A stretch of 32,000 nt of DNA from Thermodesulfobacteriota bacterium (GTDB lineage: Bacteria > Desulfobacterota > Desulfovibrionia > Desulfovibrionales > Desulfothermaceae), in contig JBNJDO010000003.1 in NCBI GenBank assembly GCA_051744965.1, forward strand, positions 27,326 through 59,325, written 5' to 3'. The translations under genes and the position numbers were made by a program. Numbering within the stretch: position 1 is the stretch's first letter; each line of letters begins with the position of its first letter. This document shows, in pieces, positions 6,560 to 31,779 of this stretch. Below the pieces are notes generated by a model that saw only the letters and a list, made by a program, of their open reading frames with translations, was not told the DNA's origin and did no database searches.

Positions 6560-6596
6560 GGCCCTTTACCATTACACCCTAGAAAGGAGGTTGACT

Positions 6597-7148
6597 GTGG
6601 CCCCGCTACGCTGGATCCTGATTTTGGCCTGTTTGTTGCTTATTGGTCTTTGTTCATTCTCCCTGGCTTTGGGCCAGGAAACAGGTCAGGAGGAAAGCCA
6701 GGCCCAGGAAGAGAACCAGGAAGAGAACCAGGAAGAGAAAAAGCCGGAAGTGGTCAGGCAGGGGCAGCAAGTGCCAGAGGAGGTGGAAGAGGCGGGCAAG
6801 GTTCCAGTCATGGTGGAATACCAGGACATGGACAGCCTGGGCAGAAGGCTGGTCTTCAACATACGGGAAAGGTTCAACAAATCCGATCTGTTCAGGCTAT
6901 CTGGATACCAGGAGGAAAAGATCAAGATCATGATCTCCAGCCAGGAGGAGTTCCCCTCCAGGCCAGGGCTTAGCTCCATCTACTCTATTGTCTGGACCTT
7001 TTCCTATGGCCAGGATGTCCTGGATAACTATCTACAGGCTGAGGTAGGTCAGATCAGCAACCAGGGCCTAACAGAGCTGGCAGAGGACCTGGTGGCCAAG
7101 ACAGACCGCATCTATACAGACTACAGCTATCTATTTGAGGAGGACTAA
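6597..7148 (+). CDS. Hypothetical secreted protein with an acidic EENQ-repeat linker
   Basis: GTG start preceded by GGAGG 6 nt upstream. Signal-peptide-like N-terminus (LILACLLLIGLCSFSLALG/QE), then the low-complexity acidic stretch QEESQAQEENQEENQEEKK, then a domain of about 120 aa that I could not assign. Confidence 0.55.
   Translation: MAPLRWILILACLLLIGLCSFSLALGQETGQEESQAQEENQEENQEEKKPEVVRQGQQVPEEVEEAGKVPVMVEYQDMDSLGRRLVFNIRERFNKSDLFRLSGYQEEKIKIMISSQEEFPSRPGLSSIYSIVWTFSYGQDVLDNYLQAEVGQISNQGLTELAEDLVAKTDRIYTDYSYLFEED
6705..6740 (+). repeat. 12-nt tandem repeat x3 (CAGGAAGAGAAC) encoding the QEEN repeats
   Basis: Read directly: caggaagagaac caggaagagaac caggaagagaaa, lying inside the CDS at 6597-7148. 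Confidence 0.8.
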
Positions 7149-7306
7149 AGACGCGACAACAAAAAATTCTTTTTGCAGTCGCAAGGAACAGATGCCAGAA
7201 TACAAAGGGCAGGAAAACCAGATAGCTACCCTGCTCTCTGGTAATAATTCTGTCCATTTTCTTTTTTTAGTTACATCAAGACAGCTCTCAGTAGGCCTAG
7301 AGGATG

Positions 7307-8467
7307 TCAATCCCTTAGCTCTCTGGCCTTATCTGAAAACCTTTGCCCAAGATCCTGCAGCAACTGAGCCACCTTGGCCACAGCATCGCGGTTCTGGCCC
7401 TGAACCAATCTGCGCTGCACCCACTCTGCTATATACAAAATCTCATGGCTCTCTAACTCCCTGGAGCTGGATCTGGACTTGATAGCCTTGATCAAATCCT
7501 CTCTGGCCCTTTCCCTGGCTTGTATGGCCCGGCGATAATCCCGGACTGCCTGCTCCTTCCTCAGTTCTGTCTGAGCCAGTTCCTGCTCCAGCTCTGGGTC
7601 TTCCCCTTCCTCTTCCTGGACTTGCCTTTGCAACATCTTCAGCCTGTTTTGCTCCTGGTTCAATATATAATTGGAGTGCACCGCATCCTGCTCATGTTCC
7701 AGATATTCCTGGACCAGCGCGGCGCTTTCTTGATTCTGGGCCAAAGCCTGGAACACACCGGCTACAGCTTGCATATAGCTGCCTTTGGTCTGCAGCAGAT
7801 CTGCAATCTCCTCCTGATTCAAGGTCCTTTCCTGCATCTGGCCATTAGGGCCTTCAAACTCCCACTTGCGCTGCCTGGCCTCTTGCAGGAACTGCTCCAG
7901 GAATTCCTGGGCATACTTCTCATATATCCTCTCCAGGACCTGGCTATCCATAACCCTATCCAGGATCTCCTTCCTGGCCTCTTGGGGATCTTCCTCCTGG
8001 TATCTGAAGCCGGTTAGCTCCAACCCGTATCTAGCGTTCAGGGATTTGAAGCTGAGCCTGCTCTTGCCCTGCTCCCCTGCATTATCCTTGCTCTGGGGAG
8101 GCACATAATGGGCCACCATGTACTCTGCCAGATCCTGGATAAAGTAGTTAGTCAGCACGTAATCCTGGATCCAAGTCCACCAGGACTCTTCCTGCTCTTG
8201 CCTGTCGCTGGCCTGAGGCCCTGTCTGCCCCAGCAGGGCTTTTTCCGGATCAGGCATCCCTTTGCGCAGCTTTTGCACAAACTCAGGTTCACTGCCCGCA
8301 GGCAGAGGCTCTGCCTGCTCCAGGGCCTGCCCTTCTGTCTCTTGGGGCTGGGATTCAGAGTCCAGCTGGCTCAGCTTGCTGCTTTGCTGGAAAAGGTACC
8401 AACCGCTGAAGCTGCCCAATAAAAGGGCAACAAAGAGCAATATTAACGATATCTTTTTTCTGCTCAT
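7307..8467 (-). CDS. Hypothetical membrane-anchored, Glu/Gln-rich coiled-coil-like protein
   Basis: I trimmed the ORF to the ATG giving MSRKKISLILLFVALLLGSFSGWYLF, a basic N-terminus followed by one TM helix. The rest is long, charged and predicted helical. I recognised no family. Confidence 0.55.
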   Translation of the reverse strand: MSRKKISLILLFVALLLGSFSGWYLFQQSSKLSQLDSESQPQETEGQALEQAEPLPAGSEPEFVQKLRKGMPDPEKALLGQTGPQASDRQEQEESWWTWIQDYVLTNYFIQDLAEYMVAHYVPPQSKDNAGEQGKSRLSFKSLNARYGLELTGFRYQEEDPQEARKEILDRVMDSQVLERIYEKYAQEFLEQFLQEARQRKWEFEGPNGQMQERTLNQEEIADLLQTKGSYMQAVAGVFQALAQNQESAALVQEYLEHEQDAVHSNYILNQEQNRLKMLQRQVQEEEGEDPELEQELAQTELRKEQAVRDYRRAIQARERAREDLIKAIKSRSSSRELESHEILYIAEWVQRRLVQGQNRDAVAKVAQLLQDLGQRFSDKARELRD

Positions 8468-8661
8468 GCATTTTATACCCGGGTTGCGATTTTTGCTTTC
8501 AAGGTTTACAGCTGGCTGACACACAAGGGGAACGCTAAGTCAAGCTAGCAAACACACTATAGAAACTCAACGATTTTCTTTTTGTAAAGCCTGGTCTGGA
8601 GCCTGTCCTACACCTGTTCAGGCTCTAACTCTGCAGACCCTGCAACGCAAGGGACTTTAAG

Positions 8662-9282
8662 ATGCAGGACTTTAATGAATCCCAAGGACCATTTCGCAAC
8701 AGCAAAGATATAATCCTGGCCTCCGGATCACCTAGAAGGCAAAGGTTGCTGGCTTCCCTGGGTGTGCACTTTCTGGTCCAGCCCAGTTCAAAACAAGAAC
8801 CTGAACCTTTGCCTGAACAGGATCCTGTAGAGTACTCCCAGAAAATGGCCAGGCTCAAGGCAGCCTCTACAGCAAGCAAGCAGAAAAAGGCAGTGATACT
8901 GGCAGCAGACACCATTGTGGTCTTGGAGGGAAAAATACTGGGCAAGCCTGGAGACTGTAACCAAGCCTTGGAGATCCTGCGCAGGCTAAACGGAGCCATC
9001 CACCAGGTAATAACCGGTTGCTGCCTGCTGGATACCGTCTCTGGTCAGGAAAAGGGCTTTGCTGTAAGCAGCACAGTAGCCATGGGCGATTTGCAGGACG
9101 AGATCCTGCAGGGGTATGTATGGAGCCAAAAACCCCTGGACAAGGCCGGAAGCTATGGGATCCAGGACCTGGGAGGAGCCTTGATTCGCTCCATCCAGGG
9201 TTCCTACAGCAATGTAGTGGGCCTGCCTATGCACGAAGTGCTGGAGGCCTTGCTGGAGCTTGAGGCCGTGCATCTGGAGTAA
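8662..9282 (+). CDS. maf: Maf-family nucleoside triphosphate pyrophosphatase (septum formation protein Maf)
   Basis: 206 aa. N-terminal ILASGSPRRQRLL motif and C-terminal GSYGIQ/NVVGLP motifs, both typical of Maf. Confidence 0.85.
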   Translation: MQDFNESQGPFRNSKDIILASGSPRRQRLLASLGVHFLVQPSSKQEPEPLPEQDPVEYSQKMARLKAASTASKQKKAVILAADTIVVLEGKILGKPGDCNQALEILRRLNGAIHQVITGCCLLDTVSGQEKGFAVSSTVAMGDLQDEILQGYVWSQKPLDKAGSYGIQDLGGALIRSIQGSYSNVVGLPMHEVLEALLELEAVHLE

Positions 9283-9287
9283 AGCTT

Positions 9288-9776
9288 ATGAGATCCTGGC
9301 TGACAAGAGTAGATGCCTTGCTTTTGCAACTGGCCACCCTGGGTCCCTTGGGCAGAATACCTTTTGCTCCAGGCACTTGGGGATCATTGGCTGCGGTGCT
9401 AGCGGCGCCTTGGTTGTTTGCCCCCCTGCCCTGGATCTGGAAGGTCATAATCCTTATTGCCCTGTTTTTACTAGGGGCGTGGACCGCAGGTAGAGCAGAG
9501 CAGATCCTGGGCCAAAAGGATCCTGGATCAGTGGTTGTGGACGAGTTCGCAGGCCAGCTACTGGTCTTTGCCATCTGTAGCCAGGCTTCCCCTTGGCAGC
9601 TGGCGGCAGGCTTTGTGCTGTTTAGGGCCACGGACATTTTAAAGCCCTGGCCTGTAGGTGCCTCAGAGGCCTGGCTGCCAGCAGGCTTCGGGGTCATGCT
9701 GGACGACATCCTGGCAGGGGCTTATGCCGGAATTATCCTTTTACTGCTGCAGTTCCTGCAAAGATCCATATCCTAA
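9288..9776 (+). CDS. pgpA: Phosphatidylglycerophosphatase A
   Basis: 162 aa. Motifs GRIPFAPGTWGS and DPGSVVVDEFAGQ match the PgpA family. The start is 5 nt after the maf stop. Confidence 0.85.
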   Translation: MRSWLTRVDALLLQLATLGPLGRIPFAPGTWGSLAAVLAAPWLFAPLPWIWKVIILIALFLLGAWTAGRAEQILGQKDPGSVVVDEFAGQLLVFAICSQASPWQLAAGFVLFRATDILKPWPVGASEAWLPAGFGVMLDDILAGAYAGIILLLLQFLQRSIS

Positions 9777-9783
9777 ACAAAAA

Positions 9784-9818
9784 GGCGGGAAACTGACCTG
9801 GCTGACCAGCTTCCCGCC
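9784..9818. terminator. Hairpin between convergent genes; a good rho-independent terminator for the minus-strand gene
   Basis: GGCGGGAA (9784-9791) pairs with TTCCCGCC (9811-9818), extendable to 12 bp with one mismatch. An A-run at 9777-9783 on the plus strand becomes a U-tract after the hairpin on the minus strand. Confidence 0.6.
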
Positions 9819-9846
9819 TTATGAGTACAATCTATGGTCTGGATCC

Positions 9847-10362
9847 CTATTCGCTGTCTGACATACTCTCTCTGACCTGCCCAATCAGCTCCAGGGCCTG
9901 CTGCAACTGTTCCTGATCCTCTCCCTGCAGTTGATTGCTGAGGAACCCGGCCCTTTGGGCAATATCATCCAGCAAGCTGGAATAGATCACATTCCTGGTT
10001 TCCTGGGGCAGATTCTCCAGCTCAGCCATCCTCTCCTGCAGCCCGCTCAGTGAGCTATCCAGGCCTGAGACCTGTGTATCCAGCTCAGACATGGAATCCT
10101 GCATCTGATTCATGGTGCCCCCCATCTCAGAAACCTGCTCATCCACTGCATTGAAGTTCTGCACAGTGTCCTCTAGCCCGGAGATATTGTTGTTTAGGAC
10201 AAAATAGAACACCACCATCAGCACCACTGCCAACGCGGATATAAACAGGGCCACCTTGCCCATGTCCCGGCGTACTTCCTCATGCAAATGATCCGGTCTG
10301 GGCTCATGCTCGTCTGATTTTGAAGAAAAGCTAACTTTTTTTACCTTTTCGGCCATAGACAT
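9847..10362 (-). CDS. Hypothetical single-pass membrane protein with a Ser/Asp/Gln-rich coiled-coil ectodomain
   Basis: I trimmed to Met7 (MSMAEKVKK) because GGAGG lies 8 nt upstream. It has one TM helix (VALFISALAVVLMVVFYFVL) followed by heptad-like repeats (SELDTQVSGLDSSLSGLQERMAELE). Confidence 0.55.
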   Translation of the reverse strand: MSMAEKVKKVSFSSKSDEHEPRPDHLHEEVRRDMGKVALFISALAVVLMVVFYFVLNNNISGLEDTVQNFNAVDEQVSEMGGTMNQMQDSMSELDTQVSGLDSSLSGLQERMAELENLPQETRNVIYSSLLDDIAQRAGFLSNQLQGEDQEQLQQALELIGQVRESMSDSE

Positions 10363-10558
10363 GGATATTACCTCCTTCATGATTTACTGCCATTTTGGCT
10401 CCCAGGCTGGCTGTCCAGGAGCAGCATTGGACAATTTTTTCCTGGTCAGTCTGTTTAATAATCAGCATAGACCAAGCAGAAAAAAATCTCAAGTCTATTT
10501 CTTACTCCTACACAATCTGCAAGAGTGCTCTAGCTTCAGGCCAACACCTAAAGCCCTG

Positions 10559-11932
10559 CTAGTTGATCAGGCTCTGAATGGGAGCAGGAATTCTGCCCCC
10601 ATGCTGGATAAAGCCCTGGGAGGTATCGTTGCCCCTAAGGTCGATAATCGGCGCTCTGCCCAGAAGCCCTCCGAACTCCACAGAATCTCCGGCCTGCTTG
10701 CCAGGCACAGGTATCAGCCTGGCTGCAGTGGTCTTTTTGTTGATCATTCCCACAGCCATCTCATCCGCGATAACCGCAGCCAAGGTCTCCTCTGTGGTAT
10801 CCCCGGGCACAGCCACCATGTCCAGGCCCACAGAGCAGACACTGGTCATGGCCTCCAGCTTCTCCAGACACAGATTTGAGTCACCCACTGCCTGAGCGAT
10901 GTACAGATCCTCACTAACCGGAATGAAGGCCCCGGAGAGCCCTCCCACATGGGAGCTGGCAAACGCCCCGCCCTTTTTCACCGCGTCATTGAGCAAGGCC
11001 AAGACAGCAGTGGATCCAGGTACCCCGATGCTCTCAAGCCCCATACTCTTGAAGATTTCGCCCACACTGTCTCCCACATTGGGCGTAGGGGCCAGGGAAA
11101 GGTCCACAATCCCAAAGGTAACCCCAAGTGCCTGGGCGACTTCTCTGCCGATGAGCTCCCCTACCCGGGTCACCTTGTAGGCAGTGCGCTTGATGATTTC
11201 AGAGAGGAGCCCAAGATTCAAGCCTGGATCAGACTCCAAGGCCCGGTCAATAGACTTTCTGACCACTCCAGGCCCACTGACCCCGACATTTATCACAGTG
11301 TCCGGCTCTCCTGTGCCCAGGTACGCCCCGGCCATAAAGGGAATGTCCTGGGGAATGTTGGCGAATACACACATCTTGGCGCAGCCCAAGCCATCCAGGT
11401 CCCTGGTCAGCCCTGCAGTCTCCTTGAGGCACTTGCCCATGGCATAGACTGCATCCATGTTGATCCCGGCCCTGGTGGAGGCCACATTCACCGAGGCGCA
11501 AACCCTCTCAGTACTGCTCAAGGCCTCTGGAATAGCCTGGATCAAGGCTTCATCTCCAGGGGCAGTACCCTTTTCCACCAGGGCTGTGAACCCGCCCACA
11601 AAATCCACTCCCACTTCCTGGGCAGCCTGATCCAGGACCCCGGCCAGCTCCACCAGCTGCCGTGCTCCGAAAGGAGCTGCCACTATGGCCATGGGGCTTA
11701 CAGCAATACGCTTATTTACCACCTTAATTCCGTATTTGTCCCCGATACGATCACAGGTGGAGACGAACTCCCTGCCTGTGCGCACTATCTTGCGCCGCAT
11801 ATTCTCCGCAAAGGTTTGCGGATCATGGCTAGCGCAATCAAAAAGGCTGATCCCCAGGGTCACAGTGCGCACATCCAAGTTCTCGTTTTTGACCATCTCC
11901 AAAGTGGAGATGACCTCCCTTTCAGAAAGCAT
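10559..11932 (-). CDS. UPF0210 / DUF711 (PFL4-like) family protein
   Basis: 457 aa. The N-terminus MLSEREVISTLEMVKNENLDVRTVTLGISL and the overall length match my recollection of the UPF0210 family. AAGGAG RBS. An ACT-domain gene lies immediately upstream, as is usual for this family. Confidence 0.8.
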   Translation of the reverse strand: MLSEREVISTLEMVKNENLDVRTVTLGISLFDCASHDPQTFAENMRRKIVRTGREFVSTCDRIGDKYGIKVVNKRIAVSPMAIVAAPFGARQLVELAGVLDQAAQEVGVDFVGGFTALVEKGTAPGDEALIQAIPEALSSTERVCASVNVASTRAGINMDAVYAMGKCLKETAGLTRDLDGLGCAKMCVFANIPQDIPFMAGAYLGTGEPDTVINVGVSGPGVVRKSIDRALESDPGLNLGLLSEIIKRTAYKVTRVGELIGREVAQALGVTFGIVDLSLAPTPNVGDSVGEIFKSMGLESIGVPGSTAVLALLNDAVKKGGAFASSHVGGLSGAFIPVSEDLYIAQAVGDSNLCLEKLEAMTSVCSVGLDMVAVPGDTTEETLAAVIADEMAVGMINKKTTAARLIPVPGKQAGDSVEFGGLLGRAPIIDLRGNDTSQGFIQHGGRIPAPIQSLIN

Positions 11933-12025
11933 ATCTCTAATGCTCCTTAAGAATAATCCAAGTTACAGGTTTACACCCCGATTTGATCCTGCCTCAGTCC
12001 CATGGGACAAACCTTGAGCCCTGCC

Positions 12026-12580
12026 TTAAAGTCTGCAGATATCCTCAAATATCCTTTTGTGCTGCACACTGACCTCCAGCCCTACTTCAGCTGCCCTCTG
12101 GCTCAGGCTGGAGACAAAATCCGACAACCTTACACTGATCGGTACATCCACCTCATAAATGGTCACAGATTTCTCAGGGAAAGCAATGCTGCCCCGGGCA
12201 AACTGCAGGTTGACTATATTCACGCCATACTCCTGCATCACGCAGGTTATGGTAGCAATAAGCCCCACCCGGTCCTGGCCCATGCTTATGACCACAAAGG
12301 GCTCGCTTTGCTCTTGTTCCTGCTGCTTTTGTTTGGGATGCACCTGGCTGATAAAGGGTCTCAAGCCAGTGCCCTGCAAGCGATCCTGTAAAAAGGAGTC
12401 CAACTCTGAAATATCCAAATCCTGGGGCAAAGCCACCAGGAAAATCCCAGCGAACTCCTCCTGCAGCACTGTTTGAGAGACATCTATTATGTTGCAATTC
12501 ACCTCAGCCAGCAGGCTGGCTACCTGGCAGACAATGCCTGGTCTGTCCCATCCCAACACGCTTACCGCTGCCTTTTGCAT
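12026..12580 (-). CDS. Tandem ACT-domain protein (GcvR/UPF0237-like)
   Basis: 184 aa with two ACT-like units (VLGWDRPGIVCQVASLLAEVNCNIIDVSQ and ISMGQDRVGLIATITCVMQEYGVNIVNL) joined by a KQKQQEQEQ linker. Confidence 0.75.
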   Translation of the reverse strand: MQKAAVSVLGWDRPGIVCQVASLLAEVNCNIIDVSQTVLQEEFAGIFLVALPQDLDISELDSFLQDRLQGTGLRPFISQVHPKQKQQEQEQSEPFVVISMGQDRVGLIATITCVMQEYGVNIVNLQFARGSIAFPEKSVTIYEVDVPISVRLSDFVSSLSQRAAEVGLEVSVQHKRIFEDICRL

Positions 12581-12854
12581 ATCCTTGCCCTGTCTTTGTT
12601 CTAACTGTGCCGATAGTGATCCTGACCTGGATCAGGAAATAGCAGAGCTTTTCCAGGTTTACAAGCTTTCCTTACCCTGTGTGAGAGATATCTTGACATC
12701 CTGATTGCAAGCCCTTTAATCTTTTTTGTACCTTGACAGCTTGACTCTGAACCCCCTCATTTTCAGTAAAGCTTGCTTCCGGGTACAGCAGACAATTTAG
12801 CCCCTCCTGATCCAGCTTTAAAGGAAAGGATCGAAGCCCTTGCAGGAAAAAAGG

Positions 12855-13838
12855 ATGATACAAGAGATCTCTGCAGCTATCTTTCGGATCACCATACCCA
12901 TGCCCAATAACCCCCTAAAGTATCTCAACGCATATCTCCTGCGCAACAACAAACGCCATTGCTTGATAGATACCGGCTTCAACCGGGATGTTTGCCGCAA
13001 AGCCCTGCTTCAGGCCCTAGAGGAGCTTGGTGTCCAGATCGCGGACACAGAAGTGCTGATCACCCATATGCACTCTGATCACAGCGGACTAGCGCCTGAA
13101 CTCTACGCCCAAGGGGCGCGCATCTGGATGAATAGTGCGGACGCTGAGGTCATTACCCAGCCTGCTGACTGGAGCCAAGTCCTGGAATATGCCCGAATAA
13201 ATGGATTGCCTGAGCAGGACCTGCTCCGGGCCAGGGATGCCCATCCCGGCTATAAGTATCGGCCCCAAGGAGAAGTGCAGACAGCAGAGCTAAAGGATGG
13301 GGACACTATAAGCTGCGCGGGATATGAGCTGCGCTGCCTGCTTACTCCAGGGCACAGCAGGGGACATGTCTGCTTTTACTCAGAACAAGAAGGACTTTTG
13401 TTCGCAGGGGACACCCTGCTGCAGGAGATCACCCCCAATATCTCCCAGTGGCTGCCTGGCACAAATCCCCTGGGAGATTATCTGCAGAGCCTGCAACGCC
13501 TGCATGGGCTGGAGGTGAAGCTGGTCCTGCCCGGGCATAGACGCCTTTTCTCGGATCACCGCCAGCGAATCCAGGAGCTGCAGGAGCACCACCAGAAAAG
13601 ACTGCAGGAGGTGCTGCGCCTGGTGCACGAGCAACCTGGAACTGCCCTGGATATCGCCTCTCGCATGACCTGGGACCTGGACACCCAAAACTGGGAGGAA
13701 TTTCCCCTGGCCCAGAAATGGTTTGCCACAGGAGAAGCCCTGGCCCATCTAAGTTATCTGGAATCCAAGGCACAAGTAAAAAATGAGCTTCAAGGCGGGC
13801 TTGAGGTCTGGTCCAGCCAAGCTGTAGCAGCCAGCTAA
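12855..13838 (+). CDS. MBL-fold metallo-hydrolase
   Basis: HxHxDH motif (THMHSDHSG) plus a downstream TPGHSRGH. I chose the ATG at 12855 over the TTG at 12840 used by the track. Confidence 0.8.
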   Translation: MIQEISAAIFRITIPMPNNPLKYLNAYLLRNNKRHCLIDTGFNRDVCRKALLQALEELGVQIADTEVLITHMHSDHSGLAPELYAQGARIWMNSADAEVITQPADWSQVLEYARINGLPEQDLLRARDAHPGYKYRPQGEVQTAELKDGDTISCAGYELRCLLTPGHSRGHVCFYSEQEGLLFAGDTLLQEITPNISQWLPGTNPLGDYLQSLQRLHGLEVKLVLPGHRRLFSDHRQRIQELQEHHQKRLQEVLRLVHEQPGTALDIASRMTWDLDTQNWEEFPLAQKWFATGEALAHLSYLESKAQVKNELQGGLEVWSSQAVAAS

Positions 13839-13883
13839 AACTGGACCTTGCGGCTTTAATCTGCAAACTCAAGGAGAATTGCC

Positions 13884-14216
13884 ATGCAACTGGCCATCAG
13901 CACCTCTGGACAGGACTTGTCTGCACCGTTGACCGGCTTCGGCAGAGCCAGCGGCTTTATTCTCTATGATACTGAAAAAGGGGATTTCAGCTATCACTCC
14001 AACTCCCAGAATATGCTCGCAGCCAGGGGGGCAGGGGCCAAGACAGCCCAGGATCTGGCCCAGACCGGGGCTAAAGCTGTAATCACCGGCAAGATGGGTC
14101 CCAAGGCAGCAGACTTCCTGCAAGGCAAAGGGATAAAGATCTATCTAGCCTCCCAGCCCACAGTCCAGGAGGCGATCCAGGCCTACCAGGCAGGCAGCCT
14201 GGAACAGCTGGGCTGA
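13884..14216 (+). CDS. NifB/NifX-family (dinitrogenase FeMo-cofactor-binding domain) small protein
   Basis: 110 aa. The pattern FGRASGFILYD ... AVITGKMGPKAADFLQGKGIKIY is typical of NifX/NifB C-terminal-like domain proteins. AAGGAG RBS. Confidence 0.75.
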   Translation: MQLAISTSGQDLSAPLTGFGRASGFILYDTEKGDFSYHSNSQNMLAARGAGAKTAQDLAQTGAKAVITGKMGPKAADFLQGKGIKIYLASQPTVQEAIQAYQAGSLEQLG

Positions 14217-14253
14217 GGGGCTGTTATCTTGTATTCTGCCCTGCTGCAGGGAT

Positions 14254-14282
14254 GCAGAACACTGCATAGCACAGTGTTCTGC
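14254..14282. terminator. Perfect 11-bp stem hairpin between convergent genes
   Basis: GCAGAACACTG (14254-14264), loop catagca, CAGTGTTCTGC (14272-14282). There is no clear U-tract on either side, so the terminator call is tentative. Confidence 0.5.
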
Positions 14283-14319
14283 AAGAGTGCTGGCAGGTAA
14301 CCTCCTGCTTGCCCGGGGC

Positions 14320-14598
14320 TTAGGCCTGGGACTTCATCCTTTGCAACAAAGCCTCCAGGCCCTGGGTATCATCCCTGGAGGAAATCCAGAACTGGCCCTC
14401 GTCGTCCCCGGCCTTGATCTCCAGGCTGGAGATCTTGTCCACCAGATATTTGGTCTTGCCCAAGATATCCTGGAAAGCATCCTGATCTTCCTGATCCTGC
14501 AAATCAGCATTCTGGCGCACCACTTCATATAGATAGGCCAGATAGGCGGCAGATGAGGCCAATAGATCCTGCAGCTCCTCCTCGCTCATTACTGACAT
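14320..14598 (-). CDS. Hypothetical small acidic protein (last gene of the sulfur-relay operon)
   Basis: 92 aa. GGGGAGAG RBS upstream of the ATG. Highly acidic and helical-looking, with no recognisable family. Confidence 0.5.
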   Translation of the reverse strand: MSVMSEEELQDLLASSAAYLAYLYEVVRQNADLQDQEDQDAFQDILGKTKYLVDKISSLEIKAGDDEGQFWISSRDDTQGLEALLQRMKSQA

Positions 14599-14708
14599 AG
14601 CACTCTCCCCTGGTTTTAGTTTGCGTGCGGGCTTGATCCTAGCTCAAGTCAGCAGCAGAGTCGAGCCTTGCAGGCCAAGGGCCCTACTTGCAGTCCAATA
14701 ATCCTGGC

Positions 14709-15044
14709 TTAAAAAACCACGTATCTGTCGCACTCCTCCACCATCTCCGCATTCCTGGCCTGGGTGGCAAAATCCCTGAATCCTACCCCTGGGACCTCGC
14801 CGGAAAGCTCCAATGCCCGGAAGCTGACATCACAGACAGAAATCCTGCCGGCCTTACCTTCCAGTTGCGCGAATTCCGGTTCCTGCGTTAGCAAGACGCC
14901 TTTGCCTGAGAAGAATATTTCCGCCTTCACCCCTTGCTTATGGGCTGCCTCGGTCAATTTGATCACCTGGCCCAAGAACTTGTTGTCCCTGACCAGGATG
15001 CCTAGTCTCTTGCCCTGGATATCTTGGCTTGCTTCAGCACTCAT
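14709..15044 (-). CDS. DsrE/TusD-fold-like small protein (candidate persulfide carrier)
   Basis: 111 aa. It has the beta-alpha pattern of DsrE-family proteins (RLGILV ... IFFSGKGV ... ISVCDVS ... DRYVVF). Cys71 sits near the position of the DsrE/TusD active-site Cys. The start overlaps the upstream stop (ATGA). Confidence 0.6.
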   Translation of the reverse strand: MSAEASQDIQGKRLGILVRDNKFLGQVIKLTEAAHKQGVKAEIFFSGKGVLLTQEPEFAQLEGKAGRISVCDVSFRALELSGEVPGVGFRDFATQARNAEMVEECDRYVVF

Positions 15045-15532
15045 TGCCCCTTTTCTCCTTTGCTTGAAAACAGGTCCCTGGCCTTGGCCAGAACCAGATC
15101 CCTGACGCTTTGCTCCATGGAGTACTTCAGAACCAGCAGGGTTATACCCTCGCGCAGGAGCTGGTCCTGATCCTTGCCTTGATTGTCCGGAATGTCGCCC
15201 AGAGCGGAAAAGATCTCGTATAAGTCCTTGGGCAGACTGAAAGTGAGCTGTACACTCTCCTGCTCTTGCTGTGCATCAGTATCCCTGGGAGCTTTCTCTA
15301 TCTGTTCCTGCGGAGCTTCCTGCAGGAGCTGGTAACACTCCAGGACCTTTTCCAGGCAGTGCTGCTTGAAGTATAATGCCCCTAAGGAACGGAGCACCTC
15401 CCTGGTGGCTATATGCTGCTCCGGCGGCAGATCTTCCTTGAACAAGGCCTTTTTGGCAGACTCCAAGGCGCTGTCGTAGCAATTGCATCTTTCCAGGACT
15501 ATGGCAGAGGCCACATCCTTGTCCATGTCCAT
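15041..15532 (-). CDS. Hypothetical protein (Cys-containing, helical; conserved-hypothetical slot of the cluster)
   Basis: 163 aa. AAGGAGAG RBS 8 nt upstream. CxC (ERCNCYD) and two further Cys residues. Translationally coupled to the downstream DsrE-like gene. Confidence 0.55.
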   Translation of the reverse strand: MDMDKDVASAIVLERCNCYDSALESAKKALFKEDLPPEQHIATREVLRSLGALYFKQHCLEKVLECYQLLQEAPQEQIEKAPRDTDAQQEQESVQLTFSLPKDLYEIFSALGDIPDNQGKDQDQLLREGITLLVLKYSMEQSVRDLVLAKARDLFSSKGEKGQ

Positions 15533-15577
15533 ATTAGCTCTCCTTGCAAGTGTTTTTTCCCTGAGCCCAGCTGACAG

Positions 15578-15751
15578 CTACCACCAGCAGATGACCTTGT
15601 CCGCGGCAAATATCTGCTGCAGCACCCGGTCCCAGTGCACATCGCCCCTGTAGAGCTCAACACTTTTACAGTCATTTTCCCTGCAGGTTTCCCTGATCAA
15701 ATCCGAGACCAGCTGCTCAGGCTCGGACTTCAAAATATGCAGCACCTCCAT
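15578..15751 (-). CDS. Small 57-aa ORF absent from the ORF track, with DsrH/TusB-like termini
   Basis: My own translation is MEVLHILKSEPEQLVSDLIRETCRENDCKSVELYRGDVHWDRVLQQIFAADKVICWW. GGGGGAG RBS lies 4 nt upstream of the ATG at 15749-15751. It fills an otherwise empty 303-nt gap inside the operon. Confidence 0.45.
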   Translation of the reverse strand: MEVLHILKSEPEQLVSDLIRETCRENDCKSVELYRGDVHWDRVLQQIFAADKVICWW

Positions 15752-15835
15752 ACTCCCCCCTGAATATTGCTTCCCTGGCTTCTGTACCTAAAGTTACTCA
15801 TCTTAACCATGGACCCTGGACTTTGAGCCCTCAAG

Positions 15836-16123
15836 TCAAAAAGGGATCACCAGGCTAGAGGCATTGATCAGCTCTACCAGACCCTGCTGATCCAGGGGCT
15901 GGAAGCCGTGCTTCTCGATATTGGTTTGGTCGTTGGAGTATCTTCTGCCCTCCATTTCATCCAAAAACTCCATATTATCCGAATATGCCTCGTCCATATT
16001 GGCCACCTGGTGATCCCAAACCACCATGGAAACATCAGTGGCGTGCAGCAACAGCCCCAGGCTAGTGCGCAGCCCTTCGTACTGTTGCTCCACATCCTTG
16101 ATCAATACAGTTACTCCCTGCAT
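15836..16123 (-). CDS. Cys-free DsrE/DsrF-fold-like small protein
   Basis: 95 aa. It starts 2 nt after the TusA stop. The N-terminal beta-strand VTVLIK and the C-terminal SLVIPF resemble DsrF/TusC-type subunits. It contains no cysteine. Confidence 0.5.
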   Translation of the reverse strand: MQGVTVLIKDVEQQYEGLRTSLGLLLHATDVSMVVWDHQVANMDEAYSDNMEFLDEMEGRRYSNDQTNIEKHGFQPLDQQGLVELINASSLVIPF

Positions 16124-16125
16124 AG

Positions 16126-16371
16126 CTAGCCCTTTTTGATAAAGTAGTTGGTGGAACCATTTTCAGAGTCATACATGCCTAAGAACTCGTTGCCGTTTTT
16201 GTTGGCAAAATCTGGAATATCGTTCTTGGAGCCTGGATCAGTGCCCAAGATTTGCAGTATCTCCCCGCTTTGCATGTCCTTCATGGTTTTCTTGGTCTTA
16301 AGCAGGGGCATGGGACAGCTAAGCCCACTAGTATCCAAAAACTTGTCCGCCTTGATTGTACTCGGATCCAT
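16126..16371 (-). CDS. tusA: TusA/SirA-family sulfurtransferase
   Basis: 81 aa. Canonical CPxP active-site motif (LDTSGLSCPMPLLKTKK). GGAGG RBS 6 nt upstream. Confidence 0.85.
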   Translation of the reverse strand: MDPSTIKADKFLDTSGLSCPMPLLKTKKTMKDMQSGEILQILGTDPGSKNDIPDFANKNGNEFLGMYDSENGSTNYFIKKG

Positions 16372-16395
16372 ATCATACCTCCTTTAATACTTGTT

Positions 16396-17592
16396 TTAAA
16401 AGATTACATACTTTTCGCTCTTTTCATTCCAGATGGCCCAAAAGGCCCAGGCCAGCAGGATCAGAAGATACAAAGGCAGGGCAATCTCCCAACCGAATAC
16501 GTCCGGCATGAAGGTCCCTGATCCCAGCTTGTCCATGAGACCTGTTCCGTGCAGCACTTTGTAGCCCAGGGAGTTAAACACGGAAAAGGCCAGCAGGGTC
16601 AACATCAGCTTGGTGTGTCCCTCTCCTGCCCGCCACAATGCCCCAGTGCCACAGCCTCCAGCCAAGAGCATGCCAAAGCCGAAGACCACCCCGCCCAGCA
16701 AGCTACCCAGCCAGAAGGGATGGTGTACGCCCATCATCTCCGGCTGCAGATAGTTCCACTTGATTACTGCAGAGCCCAGGCCGTAGATCATCAGGCTCAT
16801 GGCAATGACCCGGACCATCTCTGCATCCCCGGTCATGAATGGATCCCTGAAGGCCCGTACAAAGCACATCCTGGAGCGGTGCATGGTGATCCCGATCAAG
16901 GCGCCGAAGAACAGCAAACCCCCTACCAGGGTATGGCCCAGATAGGAGTAAACATAAAAAGCAGCCACTATCAGGACCAGGATCATTCCGCCCATATAGG
17001 GAGCGACTTTGCCCCAGTCTATCCAGGGCTTTTTCTGCAGATTCTGGGGCTTGGGCGCTCCTGCAGCCTTCTGGGGAATGTTGCTCAGCTCCCAGATCAA
17101 GATTTTAAGTCCTAGAAAGGCTCCTGCTCCTAAACCGATCATCATAGCGTACCCACCCATGGAGAACATGCCTATAGCATTGTAAAAGCCCCCAATATTG
17201 CAGCCTGCAGCCAGGGCCGCACCAATACCCATGCAAGCCCCGCCCACAAAGCCCTTTAGGTACTCATATGCAGGGGCCAGACGTATCTTGAACTGCCTGC
17301 CCAGCAAGGCAGAGGCCACAGCGCCTACCAGCAGCCCGATATTGCTCATTGACATGGTGTTCAGCCAGGGGACCTCTGGCTTTTCAGAGCCTATTCCCAG
17401 ACCGTAGACAATCCAGTCCCCCCAATTGCGGTAGCCTCCAGTGATGCCCCAGGAGCTGTGCCACATAAAAATTAGCAGGGCCAAAATGGCCACAAATATA
17501 CCAGCCAGCCAGCCCGGCCAGTTGCGCTCAAACACCGCTGCATAGTTGCGCCTGCTCTCCTCGCGCAGGCTTTGCCAGAATGTAACAGACAA
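16396..17592 (-). CDS. YeeE/YedE-family sulfur-compound (thiosulfate-type) transporter
   Basis: 398 aa polytopic membrane protein with the duplicated Gly/Cys-rich motifs of the Sulf_transp family (GGACMGIGAALAAGCNIGG and LLAGGCGTGALWRAGEG). TTG start with AAGGAG 6 nt upstream. Confidence 0.85.
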   Translation of the reverse strand: MSVTFWQSLREESRRNYAAVFERNWPGWLAGIFVAILALLIFMWHSSWGITGGYRNWGDWIVYGLGIGSEKPEVPWLNTMSMSNIGLLVGAVASALLGRQFKIRLAPAYEYLKGFVGGACMGIGAALAAGCNIGGFYNAIGMFSMGGYAMMIGLGAGAFLGLKILIWELSNIPQKAAGAPKPQNLQKKPWIDWGKVAPYMGGMILVLIVAAFYVYSYLGHTLVGGLLFFGALIGITMHRSRMCFVRAFRDPFMTGDAEMVRVIAMSLMIYGLGSAVIKWNYLQPEMMGVHHPFWLGSLLGGVVFGFGMLLAGGCGTGALWRAGEGHTKLMLTLLAFSVFNSLGYKVLHGTGLMDKLGSGTFMPDVFGWEIALPLYLLILLAWAFWAIWNEKSEKYVIF

Positions 17593-17648: not shown

Positions 17649-17664
17649 TGCAACTGTCGTTCCA
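17649..17664 (-). promoter_or_regulatory. Candidate sigma-54 (-24/-12) promoter for the YedE-TusA-DsrE-like operon
   Basis: The minus strand reads TGGAACGACAGTTGCA against the consensus TGGCACG-N4-TTGCW. There is one mismatch and exact GG-N10-GC spacing. The -12 GC lies about 57 nt upstream of the TTG start. Confidence 0.45.
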
Positions 17665-17897
17665 AAAAACTGCTTCTGGATATTGCCTAGTTTTCTGGAT
17701 TTATACCCTGCTGCCGGTATCTGACCCTAAAATTGTTAAAGCCAGTTTCAACAACTGTTTAATCACTCTTTTCTTAACCCTGGATCCAGGAACAAACAGG
17801 CTGCATTTTTGCTTGGCAGATGCTATGAATACAGCTAAGGAGGAAGGTTATTAGTGCCTTATCCGTGAAACTCTGTCAGAAAAAACAAGAAATTTAT

Positions 17898-18033
17898 GAA
17901 CCACAAAGGCACTAAGGACACGAAGGGAAGAACGAAGAAGAATGATTTTTCTTCTGCTGGGTCAGACAGCAGAAGAAAAGGCTTCCACGCCATGAAGTAT
18001 AGCTGATTTGTGCCCTTTGTGCCTTCGTGGTTC
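17898..18033. repeat. Nested palindromic element (24-bp imperfect terminal inverted repeats around a 13-bp perfect hairpin)
   Basis: The left arm GAACCACAAAGGCACTAAGGACAC (17898-17921) matches the reverse complement of 18010-18033 at 21 of 24 positions. The arms are built from 9-nt CACnAAGGn units. The central hairpin is TTTTCTTCTGCTG (17947-17959) paired with CAGCAGAAGAAAA (17967-17979). Confidence 0.7.
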
Positions 18034-18171
18034 AAATCTTTAACTTGGGTTGCGGGCACAGTCCGCTTTAGGAAGCTCTAAACGTATTTATTCACCATCT
18101 ACTATGCCCGAACAAACATATACACCATGAGCCTGTGAATAGTCACCTCTAAACATAAATAAGGAGAGAAT

Positions 18172-18969
18172 ATGTCTACAAAGCAGATCCAGGAAGCGGC
18201 AGAGCTCATCTACCAGGAGCTCAGACTGGACACCCTGCCGGTGGCCTTCAAGATCCAGGAAGAGGCAGCGCAGGAGCCGGAAAAGACCCGCAGGCCAGCT
18301 CGAGATCTGGGCAAGCGGATCACTATCTGCCAGGCAGTGGGCATGGCCCGCACCTATGGCTGGACCCTGGGCCTGGAAGCCAGGGATATTGCCTGCGTGC
18401 CTGCCCTGATCTGCTTTGGCCACAGCAGCCTGGAGCAGCCCAGGCAGGTTTTGGCGGAGTTCTTTAGCCAGGTGGGCTGGTCCCGGGACTTGCAGACAGC
18501 CTCCAGGGAGATGGAAAACATAAACTGTTTGCCCAGGGGCAGGGCTGGAATGATCTTGCTTGCCCCGCTCAAGAAGGCCCTGTTCCACCCGGATGTGGTG
18601 GTGGTCTACGCCAACCCAGCCCAGATCATGCGCCTGGTGCACGCCTGGACCTTTACCTCAGGTAAGCCTGTACAAAGCGAAGTCAGCGGAAAAGTGGAGT
18701 GCAACAGGTATCTCCTGGGGCCTTTCCTGCACCAGGCTCCTGAAGTGGTCATCCCGGGCAACGGGGACAGGATTATGTCCAGGACCCAGGACCAGGAAAT
18801 GATCTTTGCCTTTCCAGGTTCAGCCCTTGCGGACATCAGCCAGGGACTGGAATCCGCAGGCAGAAAAATGGGGGCTCGCTATCCTGTGCCGTTTTATCAG
18901 AACTTTGAGCCGGAGTTTCCGCCAGTCTTCAGGGAGCTGGCCCAAAAGGCGGGGTTGGAGATGGATTAA
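18172..18969 (+). CDS. DUF169-domain protein (COG2043-like)
   Basis: 265 aa. The pattern LPVAFKI ... ICQAVGMAR ... VVVVYANPAQIMRLVHA ... ECNRYL matches my recollection of DUF169. AAGGAGAG RBS. Confidence 0.65.
   Translation: MSTKQIQEAAELIYQELRLDTLPVAFKIQEEAAQEPEKTRRPARDLGKRITICQAVGMARTYGWTLGLEARDIACVPALICFGHSSLEQPRQVLAEFFSQVGWSRDLQTASREMENINCLPRGRAGMILLAPLKKALFHPDVVVVYANPAQIMRLVHAWTFTSGKPVQSEVSGKVECNRYLLGPFLHQAPEVVIPGNGDRIMSRTQDQEMIFAFPGSALADISQGLESAGRKMGARYPVPFYQNFEPEFPPVFRELAQKAGLEMD

Positions 18970-31701: not shown

Positions 31702-31779
<78 letters not shown>

What the first reader, a model, noticed from the sequence alone, without database searches (positions are those of the whole stretch)
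14320..17592. Expanded YedE-TusA-DsrE-like (YTD-type) sulfur-relay operon with four unassignable small partners
Seen in sequence:
- Seven co-directional minus-strand genes have gaps of 24, 2, 84, 45, -4 and 110 nt, and a perfect 11-bp hairpin closes the set.
- In order they are a YeeE/YedE transporter, TusA with the CPxP cysteine, a Cys-free 95-aa DsrE/F-fold-like protein, a 57-aa ORF, a 163-aa Cys-containing protein, a 111-aa DsrE-like protein with Cys71, and an acidic 92-aa protein.

Established knowledge, from memory:
- YeeE/YedE with a TusA-like partner imports thiosulfate-type sulfur.
- A 'YTD' cluster (yedE-like, tusA, dsrE-like plus two conserved hypothetical genes) has been noted in genomes of sulfur oxidisers and disproportionators. 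As far as I know its mechanism is unsolved.

Inference:
- This is an enlarged YTD variant.
- The 95-, 57- and 111-aa proteins could form a miniature DsrEFH/TusBCD-like persulfide relay.
- The 163-aa and 92-aa proteins could be unknown acceptors or adaptors.
Basis: partly seen in the sequence, partly recalled or inferred. Interest (0 to 1): 0.72.

Follow-up and report, generated by a model that had tools for sequence, protein, structure and literature searches.

The report
Known YTD sulfur-relay operon, six-gene form
This is a normal copy of an already described sulfur-carrier operon (YeeE, TusA, DsrEFH type II), in the form that carries one extra conserved protein, "CHP3", whose job is still unknown; the seventh gene is only a local neighbour.

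Summary
All seven minus-strand ORFs, their spacings and the closing hairpin are present as described. Six of them form a conserved unit: yeeE, tusA, p95, p57, p163, p111.

- **Identity of the small proteins.** The seed sequences of a 2026 survey (PMC12998232) show that p95, p57 and p163 are the YTD "conserved hypothetical proteins" CHP1, CHP2 and CHP3. A second 2026 paper (PMC13293266) showed by experiment that DsrE-like + CHP1 + CHP2 form "DsrEFH type II", a TusA -> DsrE-Cys -> DsrC persulfide relay.
- **p111.** It keeps the active-site cysteine (Cys71).
- **p92.** It is a real gene but occurs only in close Desulfohalobiaceae relatives. It is not part of the unit.
- **p163/CHP3.** This is the only open item. 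In 50 of 52 metagenome loci found by searching with p163 itself, it lies between dsrH-II and dsrE-II. It has a TPR-like N-domain with three invariant cysteines and an acidic C-domain that weakly resembles ribbon-helix-helix (RHH) folds. Clusters that carry it have cysteine-free DsrF-II.
- **Promoter.** A sigma-54-type promoter motif precedes yeeE.

Verdict: a new member of a known kind, of modest interest.

The parts
17649..17664 (-). Sigma-54-type -24/-12 promoter motif TGGAACGACAGTTGCA (GG-N10-GC), 57 nt upstream of the yeeE start codon.
   Evidence: It is the only match to TGGNAYNNNNNTTGCW in the 32-kb window. One match somewhere is not significant on its own (0.58 expected). However, the same motif lies upstream of the first operon gene in L035, L010, L006, L011, L015 and L029. 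Desulfobacterales loci also carry a divergent PAS-AAA+-HTH_8 sigma-54 activator gene.
16396..17592 (-). yeeE/yedE-like sulfur-compound permease (398 aa, TTG start, AAGGAG ribosome-binding site).
   Evidence: Pfam Sulf_transp E 1e-46, two stretches. NCBIfam TsuA and YedE/FdhT models hit only below their cut-offs. Relatives at 54-84 % identity head the same cluster in 20 or more genomes.
16126..16371 (-). tusA (81 aa); Cys19 in the CPxP motif is the persulfide carrier.
   Evidence: Pfam TusA 87 bits against a gathering score of 28.6. The motif GLSCPMPLLKTKK is conserved in all relatives.
15836..16123 (-). dsrF type II, also called CHP1 (95 aa, no cysteine).
   Evidence: Same family as the chp1 seed set, which includes D. 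hydrogenovorans WP_028574671. hhalign to the cable-bacteria/Thermodesulfobacteria type gives 98.8 %, E 4e-17. There is no Pfam or PDB sequence hit.
15578..15751 (-). dsrH type II, also called CHP2 (57 aa, C-terminal ...DKVICWW).
   Evidence: Same family as the chp2 seed set. The homologue is also 57 aa in Electrothrix. The 33-kDa trimer reported for cable bacteria fits 114 + 123 + 57 aa (the arithmetic is my inference).
15041..15532 (-). CHP3 (163 aa). It has a TPR-like four-helix N-domain with invariant Cys16, Cys18 and Cys66, an acidic disordered linker, and an acidic C-domain that weakly resembles RHH folds. Its function is unknown.
   Evidence: It belongs to the chp3 seed family. The AlphaFold2 model has pLDDT 79 and pTM 0.69. 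The N-domain matches consensus TPR at E 2e-5. The gene overlaps dsrE-II by 4 nt.
14709..15044 (-). dsrE type II (111 aa); Cys71 (codon 14832-14834) is the predicted persulfide-binding residue.
   Evidence: Pfam DsrE E 5e-4, below the gathering score. The cysteine is invariant in alignment A3 and aligns with the Cys of the Electrothrix protein. hhalign gives 99.2 %, E 3e-19. The equivalent Cys67 was proven essential in E. aureum.
14320..14598 (-). p92: an acidic 92-aa protein restricted to this lineage. It is a neighbour and not part of the conserved unit.
   Evidence: It has only four homologues, all at 75-99 % identity. It is absent downstream of dsrE-II in L006 and in all p163-seeded loci. 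It is intact in L032-L034, where the cluster has decayed. dN/dS is 0.14.
14253..14283 (-). Perfect 13-bp hairpin with a 5-nt loop and no U-tract, lying between the convergent p92 gene and the Nitro_FeMo-Co-family gene.
   Evidence: MFE -40.4 kcal/mol for the 101-nt segment; z-score -2.8.

Best explanation
The locus is a sigma-54-driven yeeE-tusA-dsrF(II)-dsrH(II)-chp3-dsrE(II) operon. That is the 'YTD' cluster in its six-gene form, here in a Desulfohalobiaceae (haloalkaliphilic sulfate-reducer) genome.

Proposed mechanism, with the basis of each step:
1. YeeE brings a sulfur compound across the membrane. This is inferred from the family; the substrate is unknown.
2. TusA Cys19 carries the sulfur as a persulfide. 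This is inferred from the conserved CPxP motif.
3. TusA passes it to Cys71 of DsrE-II, which sits in a DsrE-F-H type II heterotrimer. This was shown for the cable-bacterial orthologues and is inferred here by homology.
4. The trimer passes it on to DsrC and so to DsrAB. This was shown in vitro for the orthologues. dsrC and dsrAB are not in this window.

CHP3 (p163) is an obligate extra member of this form. My preferred reading (about 0.4) is a dimeric, cysteine-bearing adaptor or extra relay station that works with DsrE-II. It is translationally coupled to DsrE-II, and the DsrE/F subunits in CHP3-containing clusters have lost all non-catalytic cysteines.

p92 is an unrelated lineage-specific neighbour.
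For: **Family assignments.**

**Identity of p95, p57 and p163.** They match the published CHP1, CHP2 and CHP3 seed sets.

**CHP1 + CHP2 + DsrE = DsrEFH type II.** The literature gives biochemical proof: a 1:1:1 complex, TusA -> DsrE Cys67 -> DsrC.

**Homology to the cable-bacterial genes.**

**Fixed gene order.** The order YeeE-TusA-p95-p57-p163-p111 holds in 14 genome loci (of 26; 3 more have contigs ending inside the cluster) from Desulfobacterota and Acidobacteriota, and in 50 of 52 metagenome loci found with p163 itself.

**Cultured relative.** D. hydrogenovorans has the same six genes downstream of a molybdopterin oxidoreductase (PhsABC-like by domain content), two rhodaneses and a chaperone. 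PMC13293266 lists that organism as 'YeeE-TusA-DsrEFH type II'.

**Sulfur-metabolism context.** Desulfobacterales loci add a rhodanese, a multihaem cytochrome c and a cytochrome b.

**Sigma-54 motif.**

**For the CHP3 reading:**
- Cys16 is present in 58 of 59 homologues; Cys18 and Cys66 in 59 of 59.
- There is a 4-nt overlap with dsrE-II.
- A CHP3-dsrE-II pair occurs alone in L078, and a YeeE-CHP3 pair in L021 and L082.
- DsrF-II has no Cys in 46 of 46 CHP3+ clusters, and DsrE-II has a single Cys in 42 of 49. In six CHP3-less clusters the counts are 2-4 and 3-4.
Against: - The p95 profile finds nothing in the PDB by sequence, and p111 is below Pfam's DsrE gathering score.
- No dsrC or dsrAB lies in the 32-kb window, so the acceptor cannot be checked.
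- The YeeE substrate is unknown. In the cable-bacterial system thiosulfate did not load TusA, DsrEFH-II or DsrC.
- Co-transcription of all six genes is not shown. A weak terminator-like site lies inside the 3' end of chp3 (15076-15093), although the scan found only 9 sites against 5.0 +/- 2.3 expected.
- For CHP3, neither TPR nor RHH is a known sulfur-transfer fold.
- The cysteine-loss correlation rests on only six, phylogenetically clustered, CHP3-less loci.
Confidence: 0.85

Rival explanations
1. CHP3 (p163) is a transcription factor. Its C-terminal ribbon-helix-helix domain binds DNA as a dimer. Its cysteine-rich TPR-like N-domain senses sulfane sulfur, redox state or a metal/Fe-S cluster, and so tunes the operon from within.
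For: - Foldseek with the C-domain model returned 14 matches, 8 of them RHH DNA-binding proteins: MazE-mt1, PrpA RHH, NikR (rmsd 2.3 A over 51 columns), Reg576, ParD2, Rv0301, SegB and ParD1.
- The best PDB profile hit of the C-domain is E. coli YiiF (2k5j), at E 0.09. I recall YiiF as an RHH protein; this was not checked here.
- The commonest weak Pfam hits among 16 homologues are Antitox_RHH (4 of 16) and RHH_3 (3 of 16), at E about 0.03.
- The stretch before helix 1 alternates hydrophobic and polar residues, as in an RHH strand.
- Three invariant cysteines would suit a sensor.
Against: - Every RHH signal is below significance (E 0.03 to 9).
- The C-domain is acidic in nearly all homologues, with net charge -1 to -7 over residues 94-140. 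That is unusual for a DNA-binding RHH.
- The full-length model has pTM 0.69, which suggests one compact helical unit.
- The gene sits mid-operon and overlaps dsrE-II.
- The operon already has a sigma-54 promoter, and in Desulfobacterales an adjacent activator gene.
- The repeat cluster I first took for an operator lies in an insertion that is absent from a near-identical strain.
Confidence: 0.25
2. One reading: all seven genes form one enlarged functional unit, with the acidic 92-aa protein as an additional acceptor or adaptor of the relay.
For: - p92 is co-directional, 110 nt downstream, with no terminator-like site in the gap.
- The strong hairpin comes only after it.
- It is under purifying selection.
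- In L032-L034 it again follows the cluster.
Against: - It has only four homologues, all at 75-99 % identity in Desulfohalobiaceae.
- It is absent in L006, whose YeeE is 84 % identical.
- It is absent from all other genome loci and from all 52 p163-seeded loci.
- It stays intact where yeeE, tusA, chp3 and dsrE-II have decayed.
- It has no cysteine.
Confidence: 0.05
3. The cluster serves assimilation or selenium handling (YedE/YedF- or YeeE/YeeD-like uptake for biosynthesis) and does not feed the dissimilatory Dsr pathway.
For: The best NCBIfam hits for YeeE are selen_YedE_FdhT (131.7 bits) and TsuA models. TusA also hits YedF and YeeD models.
Against: - All those hits are far below the curated cut-offs: 131.7 against 350, 102.9 against 400, and 21.8 against 147.5.
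- The partners are DsrEFH type II, which transfers sulfur to DsrC in vitro.
- Neighbours in other genomes are PhsABC-like oxidoreductases, rhodaneses and multihaem cytochromes.
- PMC13293266 reports that dsrEFH-II co-occurs with reductive dsrAB in 73.9 % of genomes.
Confidence: 0.07

Closest known systems
YTD gene cluster (yedE-like, tusA, dsrE-like, chp1-3). I know it from PMC12998232, which cites Umezawa et al. 2020; I did not read the 2020 paper itself.
   Same: Same six gene families. The window's p95, p57 and p163 belong to the families of that paper's chp1, chp2 and chp3 seed sequences, which include Desulfonatronovibrio and Desulfonatronospira proteins. The phyla also match: Desulfobacterota and Acidobacteriota.
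   Different: Nothing essential differs. The gene order here (F-H-CHP3-E after tusA) differs from the E-F-H order of the five-gene form in Thermosulfurimonas and cable bacteria. p92 is an extra local neighbour.
DsrEFH type II of cable bacteria (Plum-Jensen et al. 2026, PMC13293266)
   Same: Homologous DsrE, DsrF and DsrH subunits next to tusA and yeeE. The DsrE cysteine is conserved. DsrH is 57 aa. D. hydrogenovorans, which has the same six genes, is listed there as a carrier.
   Different: The order is permuted and CHP3 is inserted between dsrH and dsrE. DsrF-II lacks all cysteines and the C-terminal ...PPPACAE tail seen in Electrothrix and Thermosulfurimonas. DsrE-II lacks the second Cys of the motif C-A-D-S-Y-T-C. 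The text and held supplements of that paper, searched for specific terms, did not mention a third CHP.
Canonical DsrEFH (type I, Allochromatium vinosum) and TusBCD (E. coli)
   Same: The logic is the same: TusA persulfide -> Cys on the DsrE/TusD subunit of a three-subunit complex -> DsrC/TusE. This is established knowledge and is restated.
   Different: Sequence similarity is marginal. p111 hits Pfam DsrE at 20.6 bits, below the gathering score, and the PDB entry 3pnx ('putative DsrE') at E 0.085. p95 and p57 hit nothing. The subunits are much smaller (111, 95 and 57 aa), and no counterpart of CHP3 is known in those systems.
YeeE/YeeD (TsuA/TsuB) thiosulfate uptake pair
   Same: A Sulf_transp permease is followed directly by a TusA-fold protein with the CPxP cysteine.
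   Different: Both proteins score far below the TsuA and TsuB NCBIfam cut-offs. Here they are coupled to DsrEFH-II rather than to assimilation.
For CHP3 only: ribbon-helix-helix repressors (CopG, Arc, NikR N-domain, ParD) and TPR-sensor regulators (RNPP family)
   Same: The predicted helix-loop-helix geometry, the preceding alternating strand-like segment, and the TPR-like helical hairpins.
   Different: All matches are sub-threshold. The domain is acidic. The domain order (TPR at the N-terminus, RHH-like at the C-terminus) and the three invariant cysteines have no described counterpart that I know of. This is a resemblance and not a membership.

Membership tests
YeeE/YedE permeases (Pfam Sulf_transp PF04143) | Two Sulf_transp repeats scoring above Pfam's gathering score. 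| tested here: met
   160.3 bits against a gathering score of 27, in two stretches.
TsuA (YeeE) thiosulfate transporter / YedE-FdhT selenium protein (NCBIfam equivalogs) | Score above the curated equivalog cut-off. | tested here: not met
   131.7 against 350, 102.9 against 400, 81.4 against 645 and 47 against 200. It is a separate YeeE subfamily.
TusA sulfur carrier (PF01206) | TusA domain above the gathering score, with the Cys-Pro-x-Pro motif. | tested here: met
   87 bits against 28.6. Cys19-Pro-Met-Pro is conserved in all relatives.
YTD cluster (yedE, tusA, dsrE, chp1-3) | Each small protein belongs to the published chp1, chp2, chp3 and dsrE families. | tested here: met
   The seed files contain the D. 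hydrogenovorans, D. magnus and Desulfonatronospira proteins that are the window's homologues P0018, P0014, P0010 and P0007 (chp3). The seed files also contain the matching 95-aa and 57-aa proteins.
YTD cluster (yedE, tusA, dsrE, chp1-3) | The genes are syntenic in one co-directional block. | tested here: met
DsrEFH type II | Homology of the three subunits to the experimentally characterised cable-bacterial proteins. | tested here: met
   Against the Electrothrix YB6 tusA-adjacent genes (L030), tblastn gives E 4e-8 (E), 1e-3 (F) and 5e-9 (H). hhalign gives 99.2 % and 98.8 %. L030 is a congener and not the strain used in the paper.
DsrEFH type II | Conserved sulfur-binding cysteine in DsrE (Cys67 in E. 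aureum). | tested here: met
   Cys71 is invariant in alignment A3 and falls in the same column as the Electrothrix Cys.
DsrEFH type II | DsrE/F/H fold of each subunit, by structure comparison with 2HY5. | not tested
Sequence-level evidence is only Pfam DsrE at 20.6 bits (below the gathering score) for p111, and nothing for p95 or p57.
DsrEFH type II | A 1:1:1 heterotrimer that accepts sulfur from TusA and donates it to DsrC. | not testable with these tools
   This is a biochemical property, shown only for E. aureum proteins.
DsrEFH type II | Co-occurrence with dsrC and reductive dsrAB in the genome. | not testable with these tools
   None of these genes lies in the 32-kb window, and the rest of the genome is not available.
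Ribbon-helix-helix DNA-binding domain (for the CHP3 C-domain) | Significant match to an RHH profile or structure. | tested here: inconclusive
   Pfam Antitox_RHH and RHH_3 at E about 0.03 in 3-4 of 16 members. YiiF at E 0.09. Foldseek E 0.8-9, with 8 of 14 hits being RHH proteins.
Ribbon-helix-helix DNA-binding domain (for the CHP3 C-domain) | A basic or neutral DNA-facing domain. | tested here: not met
   Net charge is -1 to -7 and pI 4.0-5.7 over residues 94-140 in 31 of 33 homologues.
TPR repeat (for the CHP3 N-domain) | Match to the TPR profile and a helical-hairpin structure. | tested here: inconclusive
   Pfam TPR_1 scores 21.3 bits against a gathering score of 27.8. The family profile matches consensus-TPR PDB chains at E 2e-5. 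AlphaFold2 gives four helices (residues 5-15, 19-30, 37-56 and 60-72). Whole-model Foldseek hits to TPR and 14-3-3 proteins are weak, at E 0.3 or higher.
Sigma-54-dependent promoter | A GG-N10-GC element at a conserved position upstream of the operon. | tested here: met
   Whether it is functional was not tested.

The most novel reading that the evidence does not exclude
CHP3 is a so far unrecognised fourth working part of the DsrEFH type II relay in Desulfonatronovibrionaceae, Desulfobacterales and Acidobacteriota. It would be either a cysteine-bearing relay station or adaptor that replaces the accessory cysteines lost from DsrE/F in these clusters, or a new kind of sulfane-sulfur-sensing regulator with a TPR-like sensor and an RHH-like output. 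In either case the three-protein relay reconstituted from cable bacteria would be incomplete for this widespread form.
Probability: 0.4. Interest if true: 0.6.

Novelty: new member of a known kind. Interest (0 to 1): 0.3.

Why it matters
DsrEFH type II was proposed in 2026 as a genomic sign that many 'sulfate reducers' can also oxidise sulfur. The YTD cluster is also one of the two best candidate markers for sulfur disproportionation. This locus adds nothing new to that picture.

It does draw attention to the one cluster member that neither 2026 paper explains. CHP3 is always wedged between dsrH-II and dsrE-II. It carries three invariant cysteines. It marks a form in which the DsrE/F subunits have been stripped of their spare cysteines.

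If CHP3 takes part in sulfur transfer or in sensing, models and gene screens based on the cable-bacterial three-gene version would need adjusting for a large share of marine and soda-lake sulfur-cycling bacteria. Screens would, for example, have to tolerate an inserted gene and a permuted order.

Tried and rejected
1. **GGCAC repeats as a CHP3 operator.** Four copies of RGGCACWAA and a 13-bp perfect inverted repeat cluster upstream of yeeE. All lie in a ~306-nt insertion (17843-18148) that is absent from the near-identical contig L001, which still has chp3. Rejected.
2. **p92 as a cluster member.** Rejected on distribution.
3. **Whole-model Foldseek of CHP3 against the PDB.** It gave only weak TPR and 14-3-3 hits, at E 0.29 or higher.
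5. **Exhaustive profile search with the CHP3 alignment over 1.84 billion representative proteins.** It returned 21 hits at E <= 0.001. These were four full-length family representatives plus fragments, and otherwise unrelated long TPR-repeat proteins matching the N-domain. No annotated distant relative was found.
6. **PDB profile searches.** The p95 family gave nothing. The p111 family gave only 3pnx, a 'putative DsrE', at E 0.085.
7. **Rfam and tRNA scans.** Nothing lies in or near the cluster.
8. **Terminator scan.** There is no convincing internal terminator, and the p111-p92 spacer folds no better than shuffled sequence.
9. **CHP3 as an undescribed sixth gene.** I dropped it after finding the chp3 seed file of PMC12998232.

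Full report
**Observation**

- Pfam gives Sulf_transp (E 1e-46) and TusA (E 8e-25) above their gathering scores.
- It gives a sub-threshold DsrE hit for the 111-aa protein (E 5e-4, 20.6 against 22.7 bits).
- The 163-aa protein has only weak TPR hits, and the 95-, 57- and 92-aa proteins have nothing. NCBIfam agrees.
- TusA has Cys19 in a CPxP motif, p95 has no cysteine, p111 has Cys71, and p92 is acidic with pI 4.1.
- The closing hairpin is a perfect 13-bp stem at 14253-14283 without a U-tract.

**Source**

The window matches MAG contigs labelled Desulfohalobiaceae or Thermodesulfobacteriota. NCBI calls all five small proteins 'hypothetical protein'.

**What the literature already says**

[quoted passage not shown] This is a 1:1:1 complex. 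TusA persulfidates it specifically on DsrE Cys67, and it passes sulfur one way to DsrC. The genes occur in 985 genomes, mostly together with reductive dsrAB.

I read those seed files.
- chp1 is the p95 family and includes the D. hydrogenovorans 95-aa protein.
- chp2 is the p57 family.
- chp3 is the p163 family. Its seeds include Desulfonatronospira WP_008871195, D. hydrogenovorans WP_028574672, D. magnus WP_045214686 and MSAO_Bac4 RQD67067, which are the same proteins my own search returned.

So the six-gene form is already catalogued. Only the function of CHP3 is unknown. In my term searches of the DsrEFH-II paper and its held supplements I found only 'two CHPs' and no mention of a third.

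**Independent checks of the assignments**

I searched genomes with the YeeE protein and obtained 26 loci. I mapped the seven proteins onto them by tblastn.
- Fourteen loci (L006-L008, L011-L020, L022, L023, L029; L017 by tblastn) show the order YeeE-TusA-p95-p57-p163-p111. They come from Desulfohalobiaceae/Desulfonatronovibrio, Desulfobacterales and Acidobacteriota (Thermoanaerobaculia, Holophagae).
- Cable bacteria and other Desulfobulbia (L028, L030, L031) have tusA-p111-p95-p57, divergent from yeeE and without p163.
- Thermosulfurimonas and Thermodesulfatator (L024-L026) have YeeE-TusA-p111-p95-p57.

Profile-profile comparison between the window type and the cable/Thermodesulfobacteria type gives 98.8 % (E 4e-17) for p95 and 99.2 % (E 3e-19) for p111. 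The 57-aa protein is the same length in Electrothrix and shares the C-terminal ...CWW. Cys71 of p111 is invariant and aligned with the cable-bacterial cysteine.

The 33-kDa trimer reported for E. aureum fits subunits of about 114 + 123 + 57 aa. This supports the 57-aa protein being DsrH-II (my arithmetic).

**The seventh gene**

p92 has four homologues in 5.8 billion clusters, all at 75-99 % identity and all in Desulfohalobiaceae.
- It is missing after dsrE-II in L006, whose YeeE is 84 % identical.
- It is missing from every other locus.
- In three MAGs of a sister lineage (L032-L034) the neighbourhood is the same but the cluster has decayed. YeeE has internal deletions, tusA is gone, and chp3 and dsrE-II are frameshifted. 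p92 is intact there.
- Its dN/dS of 0.14 shows it is a real gene.

It is a neighbour and not a member.

**CHP3 (p163): position and distribution**

A metagenome scan seeded with the CHP3 alignment gave 52 loci. I mapped all six families onto them with HMMs.
- Wherever enough flank exists, CHP3 has dsrH-II immediately upstream and dsrE-II immediately downstream (50 of 52 loci).
- The exceptions are a CHP3-dsrE-II pair alone (L078) and YeeE-CHP3 (L082). The genome locus L021 also has YeeE-CHP3, there with two other DsrE-family genes and a sigma-54 activator.
- In the window, chp3 overlaps dsrE-II by 4 nt.
- The family is small and has no annotated distant relative. An exhaustive HMM search found four full-length 50 %-identity representatives, fragments, and otherwise only generic TPR proteins.

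**CHP3: structure and sequence**

- AlphaFold2 on a 22-sequence alignment gives pLDDT 79 and pTM 0.69. The model has four N-terminal helices, a disordered acidic linker (residues 77-90) and three C-terminal helices.
- The N-domain matches consensus TPR proteins (E 2e-5).
- A separate model of residues 88-163 (pLDDT 83) gave 14 weak Foldseek matches, 8 of them ribbon-helix-helix DNA-binding proteins.
- The C-domain profile's best PDB hit is YiiF at E 0.09. The commonest weak Pfam hits are Antitox_RHH and RHH_3.
- Against DNA binding, the C-domain is acidic in almost every homologue.
- Across 59 unique homologues at 29-90 % identity, Cys16 (58 of 59), Cys18 and Cys66 (both 59 of 59) are conserved. 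So are Met3-Asp4-Lys5-Asp6, Arg15, Arg44, Gln57, Lys62, Glu65 and Tyr67, all in the N-domain.

**A correlation that may bear on function**

In CHP3-containing clusters DsrF-II has no cysteine (46 of 46) and DsrE-II usually has only the active-site one (42 of 49). In the six CHP3-less clusters at hand, DsrF-II has 2-4 cysteines and DsrE-II has 3-4. These include a Cys in the ...PPPACAE tail of DsrF-II and a second Cys in the DsrE-II motif C-A-D-S-Y-T-C. The sample of CHP3-less loci is small and phylogenetically clustered, so this is only a lead.

**Regulation and context**

- The only match in the window to a sigma-54 -24/-12 pattern lies 57 nt upstream of yeeE.
- The same motif precedes the first operon gene in six other independent loci.
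- Desulfobacterales loci have a divergent PAS-AAA+-HTH_8 activator gene. This is followed by a DUF3373 gene, the six genes, a rhodanese, a multihaem cytochrome c and a cytochrome b.
- In D. hydrogenovorans the six genes follow a molybdopterin oxidoreductase with Fe-S and cytochrome-b subunits, two rhodaneses and a chaperone.
- The window itself has no other sulfur genes.

**How it most likely works**

1. YeeE imports a sulfur compound. This is inferred, and the substrate is unknown.
2. TusA Cys19 carries the sulfur as a persulfide. This is inferred from the motif.
3. DsrE-II Cys71, within the E-F-H trimer, accepts it. This is shown for orthologues and inferred here.
4. DsrC receives it and feeds DsrAB. 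This is shown in vitro for orthologues. The direction in vivo (oxidation or the oxidative branch of disproportionation) is still debated in the two 2026 papers.

For CHP3 I favour a dimeric cysteine-bearing adaptor or extra relay station working with DsrE-II (about 0.4). A sensor-regulator comes second (about 0.25). Something else, such as an assembly factor or a metal-binding protein, takes the remainder.

**Verdict**

The central inference was right but has been overtaken by publication. The 'seven-gene expansion' is really the known six-gene YTD form plus a neighbour. The locus is a new member of a known kind. The remaining interest lies in CHP3.

Noticed in passing
window 17843-18148: A ~306-nt insertion lies in the yeeE-DUF169 intergenic region, relative to the otherwise 92-95 % identical contig L001. 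It carries a perfect 13-bp inverted repeat (17947-17959 / 17967-17979) followed by a T-rich run, a 10-bp inverted repeat (17851-17860 / 17906-17915) and four copies of RGGCACWAA. L006 has a related element at the same place. It may be a small mobile or repeat element. No other copy occurs in the window.
   Followed up: partly
L032, L033, L034 (positions 3849-5964 in L032): Three MAGs of a sister Desulfohalobiaceae lineage share a decayed version of the cluster. YeeE is reduced to residues 1-35 and 101-247. tusA is deleted. chp3 is split by a frameshift, and dsrE-II is frameshifted in two of the three. dsrF-II, dsrH-II and p92 are intact. This looks like natural loss of the system, or possibly shared assembly error.
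   Followed up: partly
window 17674-17681 and 17693-17700: An 8-nt direct repeat (ATCCAGAA on the coding strand) with 19-nt spacing lies directly upstream of the sigma-54 -24 element and is also present in L001. D. hydrogenovorans has a different repeat (CCTTAAAA twice) at the same position. It could be a regulator site, but the chance expectation is about 0.1, so it is not significant on its own.
   Followed up: no
L024 5465-5830, L030 6513-6860 (DsrF-II homologues): DsrF-II in Thermosulfurimonas, Electrothrix and several chp1 seed sequences ends in a conserved tail ...GLPKQ..PPPAC(A/S)(E/D), with a cysteine two or three residues from the end. This is reminiscent of the flexible Cys-bearing arm of DsrC. 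The window type and some Desulfobulbia lack it.
   Followed up: partly
L021 181-3821; L082 236-1941; L078 4929-5810: These are alternative homes for CHP3. In L021 and L082 it follows YeeE directly, without tusA, dsrF-II or dsrH-II; L021 also has two other DsrE-family genes and a sigma-54 activator. In L078 it occurs as a lone CHP3-dsrE-II pair.
   Followed up: partly
L011, L012, L015, L029 (about 4460-15100): In Desulfobacterales the six genes sit in a larger conserved locus: a divergent PAS-AAA+-HTH_8 sigma-54 activator, DUF3373 (porin-like), the six genes, a rhodanese, a multihaem cytochrome c (Cytochrome_cB) and a cytochrome b561.
   Followed up: partly
window 18172-18969 (+): A DUF169 gene is divergent from yeeE. 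It is absent at this position in the sister lineage L032-L034 and is not linked to the cluster in other genomes.
   Followed up: no
window 31702-31779 (+): tRNA-Asp (GTC). It is the only RNA gene that Rfam and ARAGORN found in the window.
   Followed up: yes
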